A stretch of DNA of 42,224 nt, from positions 101,319 through 143,542 of the IMG/VR virus record IMGVR_UViG_3300031853_000004; one strand, 5' to 3'. The notes below the pieces were generated by a model. That model worked only from the letters and a program-made list of their open reading frames with translations, did not search any database and was not told the DNA's origin. Positions 15,665-19,708 of this stretch are shown piece by piece. How positions within the stretch are numbered: the stretch's first letter is position 1; each line of letters begins with the position of its first letter. Source of the stretch: a virus (Duplodnaviria > Heunggongvirae > Uroviricota > Caudoviricetes). The position numbers and the translations under genes are program-made.

Positions 15665-16168
15665 TTACACCCTTTCAAATCGTTTGTCAGGTGCGTCATA
15701 GTTCATAATTTTATACATAGATGATCTAACATGTCCATCAGAATCGTATTCACGTCTAGAGTATAAACGTTGCATTTTAAGAGCCTTCAATTCATAAGAT
15801 TCTTTTAGACTTATTAATTGTTTTATATGAGCTGCTTGACTGGTAAACTTAAAATCTGATCCACTGTATTTTTGTCTAACGAGATCAACATTAGCTATTT
15901 GATACCCAAGCCATTCACATATCATATAAAGTCTAATAATAGTCATTTCAGTAGATGTTAATTTAACTGTAAAAGATTGATTATCAAAATCAAAAACAAA
16001 AGGTGTTTCTCAGCGAGGAAACTCAAAACTATTAATTGCTGCAACTAATAATTCTTGTAAAACCTCTTTTGTATCTTCTTCAGTCATTTCCATGTACATG
16101 TCATCAGTAATTCCCGCAAGGAAAAAATCATACATATCTTGAAAAGAGGTAGGTGATTCTTCTGCCAT
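15665..16168 (-). CDS. Putative head-tail adaptor protein (167 aa); 1 in-frame TGA
   Basis: RBS GGAGG, ATG 16168. TGA 16010 joins the N-terminus to track ORF 15665..15946 (EWL...KYSGSDFKFTSQAAH). Function inferred from position. Confidence 0.72.
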
Positions 16169-16192
16169 ATTCCTCCCTCCTTTTCTTTGTCT

Positions 16193-16744
16193 CTATTGGA
16201 CTCTGCGTCCTTGTGGTTTCACTTCTTTATTTGAACCAACTCGGCGAGTTTTACGCTCTGTTGGAGTATCTTCAACTAAACTATTTAGCTCTTCCGCATA
16301 ACTAATCATTTTTGTAATATCATGACCGGTTTCTTGCTGAATTAAACGATGCTTATTAATATCTGGAATTTGAAGAATTACTGCTTGACTTACAATAGTA
16401 TCAACAATTCCAATAGGAGCAAAATCCAAAGCATCTGCTAATTCATCAATAGAACCATTAAGTAAAACTCTTTTAACATCATTTAAAGTCCAAGAGTACT
16501 CATGAGTAAAAAGATCTTCTGAAATACCAAACTCTGCGGCGAGGTCTTGATTCTCTACTGCAAGATAATCTTGTAATAGCTTTGAACCTCCTGGAAGGTA
16601 CCAAAGTTGACGCAATTCAGCGGCAGTTAGCTCTTTTGTTTCAAAACCTCTAAAGACTCTTCGTACTCGTAGTTCTGGAATTGTAAAAGCTACTATTTGG
16701 TCTGTTAGGTTGCGGACTCGAACTGTAATATCATCTTTAATCAT
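16193..16744 (-). CDS. Conserved head-module hypothetical protein (183 aa), no TGA
   Basis: RBS AAGGAG, ATG 16744; open in the standard code; TAG stop; both Trp codons are TGG. Confidence 0.8.
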   Translation of the reverse strand: MIKDDITVRVRNLTDQIVAFTIPELRVRRVFRGFETKELTAAELRQLWYLPGGSKLLQDYLAVENQDLAAEFGISEDLFTHEYSWTLNDVKRVLLNGSIDELADALDFAPIGIVDTIVSQAVILQIPDINKHRLIQQETGHDITKMISYAEELNSLVEDTPTERKTRRVGSNKEVKPQGRRVQ

Positions 16745-16779
16745 TTTCAATCTCCTTTTAATCTCCATTTTATAAAATA

Positions 16780-16800
16780 GGGGAGGAAGAAATCCTCCCC
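16780..16800 (-). terminator. Intrinsic terminator ending the capsid transcript
   Basis: GGGGAGGA-loop-TCCTCCCC followed by TATTTT. It lies after the capsid-extension ORF, not after the MCP. Confidence 0.75.
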
Positions 16801-16832
16801 TTTAATTAAATTAATGTTCGGATGTAAATCCT

Positions 16833-18095
16833 TTATTCTGGTATTACCTCATATCAGTCGCCATTCTTTTCAGACTTGAATCCATCCGCAACAAAGTTTG
16901 TATTAGCTCCTTCTGCTAAATTGTTGGCAGGGTTAAATTTATAGAACTTACCGCCTTCAACTAAAATACTAGAAGGACTATATATACCACCTGCGTAAGC
17001 AGATTCATTCATGTCAAGCATATTTAAACCATACTTAAAGTTACCATTTGAATCATAAGTTTCGTTGGTATCAGGAACTATATTAAAGACTCCACCTTTA
17101 ATTACGGCATCCCCGCCATAATATTTATAGTTTGCTCCAGACCCTCCTGGTTGTCCAGCTTGTAAGACACTGGTTTTACCAGTAAAATTACCAGATTCAA
17201 GAATTAACTTAGAAGGATAGTCTCCTGCTAGGTGACCAACTAAGAACGCATAATCTCTACCATATTCAATAGCACCCGTACCGACACTATCCTTCACAGT
17301 TATCTCACCATAATCTACTCTTAAAGCATAACTTGAAGAAGCAGAACCTGTAAGAGTATGTCCATTAAGGTCAAAAGTTAATTTAAAATCTTGCACTCTT
17401 GGAGCTGTACCTGAAAATCAAATTGACTCTGTAGTATCATTATTTAAAACTATAGTATCTCCATTTTGAGCTGCTTTAAAAGCATTTCCTAATGTTTTAT
17501 AATATACTCCATTAATAGAGGCAGATGGAATATAAAAAGTTATTTTAGCTTCCGCATACTTTCCATCTTTACTTACTCTAAAAATTGCTTGACCTGGCTG
17601 TAAAGGTGTAATAAAAATATCATCTTCTATTTTTTCAACTATCGCTGCATCTTGATTATTAGATGTAATTATGTAATCAGAAATATTAACTATATTATTA
17701 TTAATTTTTAACGTAGTTATTTTTTCTGCACCATCTGTTAATAATTTATCTGTGCTATCTGTTAAAATAGTTGCCGCAGGCGAATAATTAACAGGAACGG
17801 TGTCATAAACAGCATTATCTTTTATAAGTTTGATAATAGTTGTTCCTACACTAAGATCTGTTGAATTGGCGCGAGTTATATTTAAAGTTCCTACGCCTTT
17901 AGAAGTAAAGTTTGTATTACCTGATTGTATTAAAACACCAGAGTTATCAATTAATGACCAACCTTCTTTATCCTCTGCGGTCAAAGGCTCTCCATCGGCG
18001 CGACTAAGCGTTATTTTCAAAGGAGTTGACGCAGAGGTTAAAGAATAGTTATCTGCATTAAAACTTACCTGATAATTCTCGTCAGGATTTACCAC
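16833..18095 (-). CDS. Ig-like plus adhesin/beta-helix-like domain protein (420 aa), in frame with the MCP (possible readthrough extension); 2 in-frame TGA
   Basis: TGA 17418 and 16854 join the track ORFs; TAA at 16833. Motif ASINGVYYKTLGNAFKAAQNGDTIVL...LTFDLNGHTL resembles bacterial surface-protein repeats. Only a weak AGGA precedes the GTG at 18095. Confidence 0.7.
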
Positions 18096-18104
18096 CGGGT
18101 CGTC

Positions 18105-19196
18105 CTAATCACCGATCTCCTTGCGGCGAGTACGTGTATCATCAAGTGAAGAATCTTTGTAAGCGCAAATCCAATTAATTTGACCCATATGAGCGACGGT
18201 ACCAACGCCTACCTTCTGATACATCTGAACATCGGTTGACCAATCTTCATTGTTATCAGTGGTACGAAGTAGAAGTTGCCCCTCAAAGACAATTTTAACA
18301 GGCTTCTCTGTGCCAGTAGGAATAATATAAGCAGTTGAAGGATTAACGACAAAATTAGTATTTGTCTCATCAACAAGACCCTGCTGTAGAATTACAACAT
18401 TATGACCCTTATAATTACCGAGCCAACCATCTGCCCACATACGATCTTTCATAGCGTCAGACCAACGACCCTCAGAAGGAATCATCTTATTGGCAAACGC
18501 TTGTGTACAATAAATTGTTGCACGGCCATACTGATCAGCAATAGCGAGTAACTCATCCATTACTTCCTCGTCAAAGCCATTGACAGTTGCTTTATTAACC
18601 TCAGGAATGTCGGCAATCATAGCAGTAAGAGCCGCAGCTACCTCACGAGCAATGAAATAGTCAAACTCCTCCATGATAATCTGAGAATAATCAGCGAGTG
18701 ACCAACGTCCGTCAAGAACTTCTTCGAAGCCAATGCGGACTGCGCTGGTGATAGCACCAGTCTCAACTGTCATCTCAGCACCATCAAGCATGAATGTCTC
18801 GTAACGAGCTGCAAGCGCGCCACGGGTAACAAATGTACGAGCACGACGCTTAGAAGCTTCAGTTACACGAATCTTAAATACTGCACGATCACCCTGAGCA
18901 ATATGCTCAACATCAGCAAATTGCATATACATTTTATCGACACGGGCAGGAATAACCTCTTCAAGCACATGAGAAACTAGAGCAAAAACCTCGTCACGAT
19001 TAGCTTTCCAAGTATAATAATCTACTTTACCGCCATTATAACCAAGTCTTTCAGAAAGCTCTTTTGCAAGAACTTCATTCACTTGTTCAATAGAATACTG
19101 TTCATTCTTACCATTAAAGGAGAAATTAACAGAAGTGCCTTTATCTGCACGAACTGCCTGTTTAGCAAGCATTTCTAAATCTTTAAAATCTAGCAT
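18105..19196 (-). CDS. Major capsid protein (363 aa), no TGA
   Basis: Strong RBS GGAGG. Located after the protease/scaffold and accessory genes; size and codon bias of a highly expressed gene; 7 Trp, all TGG; ends in TAG. Confidence 0.8.
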   Translation of the reverse strand: MLDFKDLEMLAKQAVRADKGTSVNFSFNGKNEQYSIEQVNEVLAKELSERLGYNGGKVDYYTWKANRDEVFALVSHVLEEVIPARVDKMYMQFADVEHIAQGDRAVFKIRVTEASKRRARTFVTRGALAARYETFMLDGAEMTVETGAITSAVRIGFEEVLDGRWSLADYSQIIMEEFDYFIAREVAAALTAMIADIPEVNKATVNGFDEEVMDELLAIADQYGRATIYCTQAFANKMIPSEGRWSDAMKDRMWADGWLGNYKGHNVVILQQGLVDETNTNFVVNPSTAYIIPTGTEKPVKIVFEGQLLLRTTDNNEDWSTDVQMYQKVGVGTVAHMGQINWICAYKDSSLDDTRTRRKEIGD

Positions 19197-19216
19197 ATCT
19201 ATTTTCCTCCCTTCAA

Positions 19217-19708
19217 TTAAGCCTTAGTTACTTGGAGTTTAAGACCGGGCTGACCATCAGGCATAGTTGTCTCTTTAACAATTGTGCACTCAAGATCGCC
19301 TGTGCCAACCTCAAGAATACCCTCGTCGCCAGGAGTAAGTACCTGACCAACAGAGTAGGTAGCATTAGCAACATTATTTGTAGTGAAAATATCACCAGCG
19401 TGCATTACGAATACACGAGGATACATCTTACCATCGTAGAAATCCGCAGCCTGCATAGCATAGTCGCGATGCATCTGGTGACGCTCATCATAGAGCTTCT
19501 CCTCATTAAAGACCATCATCCAAGGACCTTCGCCAGTGAAATTCACTTCACCGTTAGCATAATCATACTTTACAAAGGTGCCCTGCTCAAGGATATCAAT
19601 CCCATCAGCCGCAGGAAGCTGACCATAGACTTGGCCGTTGCGAGGAGCAGAAAGGTGATTAGGCTCAACAACTGCGAAGCCTAGTTTACCATCAAAAGTA
19701 ATAGCCAT
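19217..19708 (-). CDS. Putative capsid accessory/decoration protein (163 aa), no TGA
   Basis: RBS AAGGAG; between scaffold and MCP; GC3-enriched codons like the MCP. Confidence 0.7.
   Translation of the reverse strand: MAITFDGKLGFAVVEPNHLSAPRNGQVYGQLPAADGIDILEQGTFVKYDYANGEVNFTGEGPWMMVFNEEKLYDERHQMHRDYAMQAADFYDGKMYPRVFVMHAGDIFTTNNVANATYSVGQVLTPGDEGILEVGTGDLECTIVKETTMPDGQPGLKLQVTKA

What the first reader, a model, noticed from the sequence alone, without database searches (positions are those of the whole stretch)
16833..19196. Major capsid amber stop followed in frame by a 420-aa display domain: candidate programmed readthrough
Seen: the MCP ends GGT GAT TAG GAC GAC CCG GTG GTA AAT CCT. The downstream ORF is in the same frame, begins with a linker-like DDPVVNPD, has only a weak AGGA before its GTG, and the first terminator (16780-16800) lies after it. 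A CCTGA/TCAGG stem sits at 18068-18086. Known: phages make minor extended capsid/tail proteins bearing Ig-like domains by frameshift or readthrough (T7 10B, A118 Cps-L, SPP1 gp17.1*, Q-beta A1). Inference: a 787-aa MCP fusion would display an Ig-like plus adhesin/beta-helix-like domain. It would need both leaky TAG and TGA=Trp (2 TGAs), a double recoding, whereas the plain MCP needs neither.
Basis: partly seen in the sequence, partly recalled or inferred. Interest (0 to 1): 0.82.

Follow-up and report, generated by a model that had tools for sequence, protein, structure and literature searches.

The report
Leaky amber stop extends phage capsid protein
The major capsid gene of this 143-kb gut or rumen phage ends in a conserved TAG stop that most likely lets a minority of ribosomes read on into an in-frame linker and adhesin-like domains. 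Related phages appear to make the same kind of fusion through a TGA stop or a -1 frameshift.

Summary
The HK97-fold major capsid protein gene (18105-19196, minus strand) ends GAT TAG. The same frame stays open for 423 more codons to TAA 16833-16835, if the two TGA codons are read as Trp, as this phage's late genes require.

Comparative evidence strongly favours programmed TAG readthrough.
- All 15 related loci that carry this extension have TAG at the junction, the same frame and no other stop. The three relatives first compared that lack it end in TAA.
- The extension begins with a Pro/Asp/Glu linker of very variable length.
- Sister lineages have no start codon for 38-67 codons after the stop.
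- Standard-code relatives join other adhesin-like cargo through an in-frame TGA, or through a -1 shift at A_AAA_AAA_G.
- No in-frame junction uses TAA.
- A context (T-STOP-RNN-GAN-CCG-G) is conserved despite saturated synonymous divergence.

The phage encodes no suppressor tRNA, and no stimulatory RNA structure was found. Nothing was tested at the protein level.

I rate it a new variant of a known kind. Capsid extension by recoding is known through frameshifting in T7, T3, A2 and A118, and through readthrough in the RNA phage Q-beta. My searches found no report of readthrough in a tailed dsDNA phage capsid gene.

The parts
18108..19196 (-). Major capsid protein coding region (363 aa, YonB/SPbeta-type, HK97 fold). 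It has no TGA codon and 7 TGG.
   Evidence: ORF. PHROG 4088, E 5e-56. 23-45% identical to MCPs or hypothetical proteins of SPbeta-like, Enterococcus and Bacillus phages, some annotated as major capsid protein. Relatives carry the precomputed Pfam PF27364 YonB. The AlphaFold model matches HK97-fold capsids, Foldseek prob 1.0, E 1e-8.
18105..18107 (-). TAG, the proposed leaky stop at the MCP-extension junction.
   Evidence: TAG in 15 of 15 loci that carry this extension, versus TAA in the three relatives first compared that lack it. Neighbouring genes use mostly TAA. Synonymous divergence between these lineages is 0.6-2.3 per site.
18092..18108 (-). Conserved junction context T-TAG-GAC-GAC-CCG-GTG-G (consensus T-STOP-RNN-GAN-CCG-G). 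It includes GTG 18095..18093, a possible secondary start.
   Evidence: In 20 readthrough-type representatives, base -1 is T in 20 of 20, against 7 of 24 MCP genes without an extension. G, A, C, C, G, G at +4, +5, +7, +8, +9 and +10 after the stop are each present in 16-19 of 20. The first Pro codon after the stop is CCG in 19 of 23 loci, although CCG is 4% of Pro codons in this phage's late genes. GTG is 7% of Val codons.
18078..18104 (-). Short linker DDPVVNPDE. Relatives have up to about 27 extra Pro/Asp/Glu/Thr residues here.
   Evidence: Alignment A1 and junction translations.
17775..18077 (-). Ig-like beta-sandwich domain 1 (extension residues about 10-110).
   Evidence: AlphaFold model with pLDDT about 90 or more. 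Foldseek hits to tandem Ig-like domains of S-layer proteins, invasin and intimin.
17529..17774 (-). Ig-like beta-sandwich domain 2 (extension residues about 111-192).
   Evidence: Pfam HL_N-beta matches 7 of 14 family members and CBM_X2 matches 4 of 14.
16836..17528 (-). C-terminal beta-rich domain (extension residues about 193-423), the best-conserved part of the extension. Its N-terminal motif resembles the cap of right-handed beta-helix domains. Its fold is not confidently assigned.
   Evidence: Many invariant columns in A1. The model has low pLDDT after residue 310. Only a weak profile match to the cap motif of the beta-helix cargo of relatives.
17418..17420 (-). In-frame TGA read as Trp (extension residue 229).
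   Evidence: Close relatives also have TGA (Trp) at this position.
16854..16856 (-). In-frame TGA read as Trp (extension residue 417, an invariant Trp).
   Evidence: 11 of 12 relatives have TGG at the aligned position and one has TGA.
16833..16835 (-). TAA, the final stop of the extended product.
16779..16801 (-). Intrinsic terminator after the extension (9-bp stem, 6 G-C pairs, T tract). No terminator lies between the MCP and the extension.

Best explanation
The MCP gene and the 423 codons after it form one recoded cistron. Most ribosomes terminate at UAG 18107..18105 and release the 363-aa HK97-fold capsid protein. A minority decode the UAG with a near-cognate aminoacyl-tRNA. No suppressor tRNA is encoded, and the residue inserted is unknown. 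These ribosomes continue through a short acidic, proline-containing linker into two Ig-like domains and a beta-rich C-terminal domain, reading two UGA codons as Trp like all other late genes of this phage.

The 787-aa product would co-assemble through its MCP part. A few capsomer positions would then display a tethered adhesin-like module on the head surface, probably for weak binding to carbohydrates on cells or in gut or rumen material.

The leakiness is probably set by a short linear context (T before the stop; RNN-GAN-CCG-G after it) rather than by an RNA structure. TAG is used because TGA, the leaky stop used by standard-code relatives, is a sense codon in this phage.

Shown here: the anatomy, the code, the folds, the conservation and the parallel junction types in relatives. 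Inferred: readthrough itself, its frequency, incorporation into capsids and the binding function.
For: 1. All 15 loci with a homolog of this extension, spanning 7 MCP clusters at 95% identity plus a lineage whose MCP is only 49% identical, have TAG, the same frame and no other stop. The three relatives first compared that lack the extension end in TAA. Flanking genes are mostly TAA: 12 of 12, 12 of 15 and 10 of 14.
2. dS between these lineages is 0.6-2.3, so a neutral TAG/TAA site would have turned over. dN/dS of the extension is 0.14-0.24.
3. The sequence after the stop is x-(D/E)-P followed by a Pro/Asp/Glu linker that varies by about 27 residues. That makes sense as a tether to an upstream domain and not as the N-terminus of a free protein.
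4. L008 and L009 have no in-frame ATG, GTG or TTG for 67 and 38 codons after the TAG. Most TGA-junction relatives have none for 20-66 codons.
5. A survey of MCP loci found these junction types. 13 standard-code loci have MCP-TGA-in-frame linker plus cargo of 212-570 codons. About 30 loci have the cargo in the -1 frame behind CTA_AAA_AAA_G, five codons before the MCP stop. The cargo of L056 (TGA, in frame) is 48-52% identical to three of the four -1-frame cargos aligned (25% to the fourth). No in-frame extension follows TAA. At the level of 95% clusters the counts are 0 TAA and 18 non-TAA with an in-frame extension, against 21 TAA and 6 non-TAA without one. Fisher p = 8e-8, not corrected for phylogeny.
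6. The TGA-junction phages G001 and G002 are standard code in their structural genes. G002 ends 24 of 140 genes in TGA.
7. The junction context is conserved and uses the rare codons CCG and GTG.
8. The Shine-Dalgarno match before the GTG is weak and not conserved: -2 to -5.7 kcal/mol, near background in several relatives.
9. The only terminator follows the extension.
10. The MCP has an HK97 fold with a low-confidence, probably flexible C-terminal tail.
Against: There is no protein-level or ribosome-level evidence.

The GTG three codons after the TAG is invariant in the main lineage, although GTG is a rare Val codon. It could therefore serve as a start by termination-reinitiation, giving a free 420-aa protein instead of, or in addition to, the fusion.

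No suppressor tRNA, release-factor gene or stimulatory RNA structure was found, so the source of leakiness is unexplained.

How this phage decodes UGA as Trp is also unknown, so its translation biology is not understood.

The comparisons are among related phages. Counts of loci overstate the number of independent events.
Confidence: 0.78

Rival explanations
1. The 420-aa ORF is a separate gene. Ribosomes terminate at the TAG and reinitiate, or initiate afresh, at GTG 18095. The free Ig-like and beta-rich protein then decorates the capsid or acts elsewhere. The shared frame is a by-product of a fixed 9-nt spacing.
For: The GTG is invariant in the main lineage although GTG is only 7% of Val codons. 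Gene callers predict stand-alone proteins of 420-446 aa. Stop-to-start spacing of 9 nt is typical of translational coupling. The window has an AGGA 7 nt upstream of the GTG.
Against: The Shine-Dalgarno match is weak and not conserved (TAGAGT, TAGACT, TAGATT, TAGAAC in relatives). The product would begin with a flexible Pro/Asp/Glu linker of variable length. L008 and L009 carry the same extension with no start codon for 38-67 codons. Coupling does not explain why the stop is always TAG and never TAA. It also does not explain why relatives use in-frame TGA or a -1 slippery site to reach their cargo. The three codons between the TAG and the GTG vary like coding sequence: GAN with third-position changes only, and AGT/AGC.
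Confidence: 0.12
2. TAG is fully decoded as an amino acid at this site by an unrecognised suppressor, or is reassigned late in infection. In that case every capsid subunit would carry the extension.
For: The closest complete relative in GenBank, phAss-1, belongs to the TAG-recoded 'code 15' clade. This phage already recodes TGA without a detectable suppressor tRNA.
Against: 36 of 173 provisional genes end in TAG, and ORF coverage does not improve when TAG is opened. No CUA-anticodon tRNA was found. Relatives reach the same architecture by a -1 frameshift, which is inherently sub-stoichiometric. Fitting 420 extra residues on every subunit would be sterically demanding; this last point is inference.
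Confidence: 0.05
3. The arrangement is the remnant of an ancestral MCP-domain fusion that was broken by a nonsense mutation. The downstream ORF is no longer expressed.
For: Fused MCP plus Ig-like domains exist in other phages. I recall phi29 gp8 as an example, from general knowledge and not tested here.
Against: The extension is under purifying selection (dN/dS 0.14-0.24) and is intact in all lineages. The TAG and its context are conserved across saturated synonymous divergence.
Confidence: 0.02

Closest known systems
Q-beta A1 (readthrough) protein and the luteovirus/polerovirus CP-readthrough domain
   Same: A leaky stop at the end of the coat gene gives a minor C-terminally extended coat protein that is incorporated into the virion and displays an extra domain. 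No dedicated suppressor tRNA is involved.
   Different: Those are small RNA viruses with UGA (Q-beta) or UAG (luteovirids). Here the virus is a tailed dsDNA phage of about 143 kb with an HK97-fold MCP. The stop is UAG in a phage that reads UGA as Trp, and the cargo is Ig-like plus beta-rich. There is no homology. Comparison from general knowledge.
MCP C-terminal extension by programmed frameshifting: T7 10B, T3, Lactobacillus phage A2, Listeria A118, A500 and PSA
   Same: Same outcome and logic: a fixed minority of capsid subunits carries a C-terminal, often Ig-like, surface domain encoded directly downstream (Atkins et al. 2016, PMC5009743). Relatives of this phage (L071-L097) have exactly this form, with an A_AAA_AAA_G -1 site.
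   Different: In the window the extension is in the zero frame behind a stop codon, with no slippery site, so the recoding event is readthrough and not frameshifting.
Stop-codon-recoded gut phages (TGA=Trp 'code 4' and TAG=Gln 'code 15'; phAss-1, PMC10607447)
   Same: Most early genes are free of in-frame TGA and many late structural genes are full of it. The MCP family is shared with phAss-1 at 42% identity.
   Different: That phenomenon is global reassignment of one stop codon. The feature here is site-specific partial leakage of a different stop codon that otherwise still terminates genes. The phAss-1 paper does not contain the words readthrough or frameshift.
Ig-like capsid decoration proteins (T4 Hoc type)
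   Same: Ig-like domains displayed on the head surface, thought to mediate weak adherence. Cited from general knowledge.
   Different: Hoc is a separate protein that binds the assembled lattice. Here the display module is covalently part of a subset of MCP subunits.

Membership tests
Programmed stop-codon readthrough of a coat protein gene (Q-beta A1 / luteovirid CP-RTD type) | An in-frame ORF directly follows the coat-gene stop and lacks an initiation site of its own | tested here: met
   Same frame in all 15 loci with the extension. No start codon for 38-67 codons in L008 and L009, and for 20-66 codons in most TGA-junction relatives. In the window lineage a GTG exists but without a conserved Shine-Dalgarno sequence.
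Programmed stop-codon readthrough of a coat protein gene (Q-beta A1 / luteovirid CP-RTD type) | The stop codon identity and its context are conserved, and the stop is of a leaky type rather than TAA | tested here: met
   TAG or TGA, never TAA, at 18 of 18 in-frame junction clusters. Conserved context T-STOP-RNN-GAN-CCG-G.
Programmed stop-codon readthrough of a coat protein gene (Q-beta A1 / luteovirid CP-RTD type) | Both the short and the extended product are made, and the extended one is a minor virion component | not testable with these tools
   This needs virion SDS-PAGE and mass spectrometry, or ribosome profiling.
MCP extension by programmed ribosomal frameshift (T7 10B, A2, A118 type) | A slippery sequence near the MCP 3' end, with the extension ORF in the -1 or +1 frame | tested here: not met
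   In the window the extension is in frame 0 and there is no heptanucleotide slippery site before the TAG. The feature is met in relatives L071-L097: CTA_AAA_AAA_G with a -1 ORF of 282-310 codons.
HK97-fold major capsid protein, YonB (SPbeta-type) family | HK97 fold, family-level sequence match, and position between the scaffold/protease and head-completion genes | tested here: met
   Foldseek prob 1.0, E 1e-8, to many HK97-fold capsids. phrog_4088, E 5e-56. PF27364 is precomputed on relatives that are 47-90% identical. The order YonD-like, 163-aa protein, MCP is shared. The local Pfam copy gave no hit to the window protein.
TGA=Trp (code 4) late-gene-recoded phage | In-frame TGA in late genes at conserved Trp positions, with most early genes free of TGA | tested here: met
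   TGA/TGG interchange at the invariant Trp 49 and Trp 417.
TGA=Trp (code 4) late-gene-recoded phage | A phage-encoded UCA suppressor tRNA (common in such phages but not universal) | tested here: not met
   ARAGORN and Rfam find 9-11 tRNAs and none has a UCA or CUA anticodon. Low-threshold candidates have poor structures.
Ig-like surface display or adhesin module | Ig-like beta-sandwich fold | tested here: met
   Two domains with pLDDT of about 90 or more. Foldseek hits to tandem Ig-like domains. Pfam HL_N-beta and CBM_X2 hits in family members.
Ig-like surface display or adhesin module | Binding to a carbohydrate or cell-surface ligand | not testable with these tools
   Inference only. The cargo of TGA-junction relatives matches PF20585, 'putative pectate lyase-like adhesive domain'.

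The most novel reading that the evidence does not exclude
SPbeta-type (YonB-MCP) phages of gut and rumen Firmicutes carry a general, modular system for displaying adhesin-like cargo on a fraction of capsid subunits. The system switches freely between three recoding devices: UGA readthrough, UAG readthrough and -1 frameshifting. The choice of leaky stop tracks the phage's genetic code, so UAG takes over where UGA has become Trp. The conserved context T-STOP-RNN-GAN-CCG-G would then be a genuine bacterial readthrough signal, the first defined for tailed dsDNA phages.
Probability: 0.5. Interest if true: 0.88.

Novelty: new variant of a known kind. Interest (0 to 1): 0.8.

Why it matters
If confirmed, this would be the first documented programmed stop-codon readthrough in a capsid gene of a tailed dsDNA phage that I could find.

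It would give a natural series in which one outcome, a minor capsid subunit carrying a displayed domain, is reached by UAG readthrough, UGA readthrough or -1 frameshifting in close relatives.

It would show how a phage that has turned UGA into a sense codon re-creates a leaky stop with UAG. That links site-specific recoding with genome-wide code change.

It offers a short candidate readthrough context for Gram-positive hosts that can be tested with reporters.

In practice, gene callers currently annotate these extensions either as separate genes that begin with a linker or as code-15 artefact fusions. Both give wrong virion protein inventories for an abundant group of gut and rumen phages.

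It also points to natural C-terminal display sites on this capsid family.

Tried and rejected
- A single-sequence MCP scan of viral contigs found nothing. An alignment-based scan was needed.
The consensus energy is -1.7 kcal/mol, no pair covaries convincingly, and the window fold has z = 0.33 against shuffles.
- Suppressor tRNA: ARAGORN at default and relaxed thresholds and the Rfam tRNA model found none. Two low-score 'tca' candidates at genome 130610-130693 and 140382-140473 have poor stems and no T-loop, and I rejected them.
- Release-factor gene: none.
- Homology between the window's C-terminal domain and the cargo of relatives: hhalign found only a weak match to the N-terminal cap motif (9.6-29% probability), so the cargos are treated as different modules. 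The two relative cargo types match only over the linker and the first 60 columns.
- Shine-Dalgarno energy ranking against all ORFs was too noisy to decide anything, because the crude gene calls are unreliable.
- The 740-aa homologs are not MCP fusions. They have a different N-terminal region, and the context of P0028 was uninformative.
- PDB sequence searches gave nothing useful.
Full report
**What is in the window.** The window is the last 42 kb of a single-contig 143.5-kb phage genome. On the minus strand lies a late block in the order terminase, portal, scaffold/protease, a 163-aa protein, MCP and tail genes. This block is open only if TGA is read as Trp. ORF coverage of positions 1-27200 rises from 0.67 (code 11) to 0.985 (code 4). 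Across the genome, most early and replication genes have no in-frame TGA and use TGG. Many late genes carry TGA, up to 21 in one gene.

The MCP ORF (18105..19196, minus strand, 363 aa) ends GGT GAT TAG. The next codons, GAC GAC CCG GTG GTA AAT CCT, continue in the same frame for 423 codons to TAA 16835..16833, with TGA at 17420..17418 and 16856..16854. The only minus-strand terminator in the region follows the extension, at 16801..16779.

**The two halves.**
- The upstream protein is a true MCP. It matches phrog_4088 (E 5e-56). It is 23-45% identical to proteins of phAss-1, SPbeta-like, Enterococcus and Bacillus phages, some of which are annotated as major capsid protein. Its relatives carry Pfam PF27364 (YonB). 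An AlphaFold model built on 37 relatives matches HK97-fold capsid proteins (Foldseek prob 1.0, E 1e-8). Its last residues are modelled with low confidence.
- The extension models as two confident Ig-like sandwiches (residues about 10-192) followed by a conserved beta-rich domain of uncertain fold.

**The extension is an insertion between conserved genes.** In phAss-1 (code 15), MT836163 (code 11) and Enterococcus phage EF1, the homolog of the gene that follows the extension here (16193..16768) comes directly after the MCP. In all three the MCP ends in TAA.

**Close and middle-distance relatives.** Protein and DNA searches recovered 15 loci with a homolog of the extension, at 57-92% identity.
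- In all 15 the MCP ends in TAG, the extension is in the same frame and no other stop intervenes.
- Flanking genes use mostly TAA.
- Synonymous divergence between these lineages is 0.6-2.3 per site, so a neutral TAG/TAA site would not have stayed fixed.
- dN/dS of the extension is 0.14-0.24.
- The sequence after the stop is x-(D/E)-P, followed in relatives by a Pro/Asp/Glu/Thr linker that varies in length by about 27 residues. This is a tether, not a plausible N-terminus of a free protein.
- In the lineage of L008 and L009 (MCP 49% identical, extension 57% identical) there is no in-frame ATG, GTG or TTG for 67 and 38 codons after the TAG.
- Longer 'MCP' proteins found in the database (439-591 aa) turned out to be gene-caller artefacts. 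TAG had been read as Gln on contigs whose other genes have no in-frame TAG. They are further examples of MCP-TAG-linker-cargo, with a pectate-lyase-like domain or an acidic tail as cargo.

**Family survey.** An alignment-based scan returned 80 more YonB-type MCP loci. They fall into three groups.
- Thirteen have MCP-TGA followed in frame by a linker (TDPVPEPDPE...) and 212-570 codons of cargo. The cargo matches PF20585, 'pectate lyase-like adhesive domain', or Beta_helix. Their structural regions are fully open under the standard code. One complete genome of this type ends 24 of 140 genes in TGA, so TGA is a real stop there. Most have no start codon for 20-66 codons after the TGA.
- About 30 loci have the linker and cargo in the -1 frame behind CTA_AAA_AAA_G, five codons before the MCP stop. 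This is a classic X_XXY_YYZ site. That cargo is 48-52% identical (three of the four aligned; the fourth 25%) to the in-frame cargo of the TGA-junction locus L056.
- Loci without an extension end mostly in TAA and never in TGA.

At the level of 95% MCP clusters, in-frame extensions follow 0 TAA and 18 TAG or TGA stops. The other clusters have 21 TAA and 6 TAG. Fisher p = 8e-8, uncorrected for phylogeny. On an MCP tree the TAG type needs at least 5 changes of state. A TAG-junction locus (L030) groups next to a TGA-junction clade that carries the same cargo, though that fork is below the tree's support star (89/79).

**The junction signal.** In 20 representative readthrough-type junctions:
- The base before the stop is T in 20 of 20, against 7 of 24 MCP genes without an extension. 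For example, CGT-TGA contrasts with CGC-TAA for the same Arg.
- The base after the stop is a purine in 19 of 20.
- G, A, C, C, G and G at +4, +5, +7, +8, +9 and +10 are each present in 16-19 of 20.
- The first Pro codon after the stop is CCG in 19 of 23 loci, although CCG makes up 4% of Pro codons in this phage's late genes.

**Mechanism and what is missing.** The best reading is partial near-cognate decoding of UAG in competition with release factor 1, tuned by this linear context. It would give a minor 787-aa MCP fusion that co-assembles and displays the module. I base the expectation that C-terminal MCP fusions face outward on T7 10B display, from general knowledge.

The phage encodes no CUA or UCA suppressor tRNA and no release factor. 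The cause of leakiness and the way UGA is read as Trp therefore remain unexplained.

The invariant GTG in the window's lineage leaves room for an additional free product made by reinitiation. The lack of a conserved Shine-Dalgarno sequence and the sister lineages without a start codon argue that this is not the primary route.

**Literature.** MCP extension by -1 or +1 frameshifting is established for T3, T7, A2, A118, A500 and PSA (PMC5009743). Readthrough is known for Q-beta. Full-text searches found no report of stop-codon readthrough in a tailed-phage capsid gene. The phAss-1 paper mentions neither readthrough nor frameshifting.

**Verdict.** Confidence is about 0.78, short of protein evidence. 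It is a new variant of a known kind, with a family-wide pattern that is more interesting than the single locus.

Noticed in passing
L071-L097 and related IMG/VR loci (for example L085:4023-4952): About 30 related phages have CTA_AAA_AAA_G five codons before the MCP stop. A linker plus beta-helix ORF of 282-310 codons sits in the -1 frame with no start of its own. These are candidate -1 programmed frameshifts in the capsid gene.
   Followed up: partly
L034-L040, L049, L050, L055, L056, L101, L104: Standard-code relatives have MCP-TGA followed in frame by a Pro/Glu linker and cargo of 212-570 codons, pectate-lyase-like or beta-helix. These are candidate UGA readthrough sites.
   Followed up: partly
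L041:4096 and L057:4288: Two MCP genes classed as lacking an extension end in TAG with the same context (T-TAG-RNN-GAN-CCA). A short in-frame tail of 22-28 codons follows, sharing the peptide ...NPDSLF. These may be short readthrough tails.
   Followed up: no
Own genome G000:C1:27575-28233 (minus strand), outside the window: A full-length ROOL RNA (Rfam RF03087, 284 bits) sits next to a tRNA cluster.
   Followed up: no
Whole genome G000: Late genes need TGA=Trp (up to 21 TGA per gene), yet no UCA suppressor tRNA and no release-factor gene are detectable. How UGA is decoded is unexplained.
   Followed up: partly
Own genome G000:C1:53455-53545 (plus strand), outside the window: ARAGORN predicts a tRNA-Ser with anticodon AGA, unusual for bacteria, directly after a low-scoring tRNA-Ser(GCU).
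   Followed up: no
window 18105-19708: The MCP (7 TGG, 0 TGA) and the 163-aa protein upstream (1 TGG, 0 TGA) avoid TGA entirely, while many neighbouring late genes, including the portal, terminase, scaffold and large tail genes, use it. The abundant capsid subunit can therefore be read under either code.
   Followed up: partly
window 16168-16195: The gene after the extension (16193..16768) also ends in TAG. The ATG of the next gene follows in frame 8 codons later. I judged this a probable coincidence (one chance in three) and did not examine it in relatives.
   Followed up: no
L006:5418-6473: One relative carries a LAGLIDADG homing-endonuclease gene inserted among the head-completion genes downstream of the extension.
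   Followed up: no
L114 (273-kb contig), proteins P0028, P0029 and P0032: These 740-aa proteins share the two Ig-like domains and the C-terminal domain of the extension (44-54% identity). They start with an unrelated region of about 330 residues and are not next to a YonB-type MCP.
   Followed up: partly
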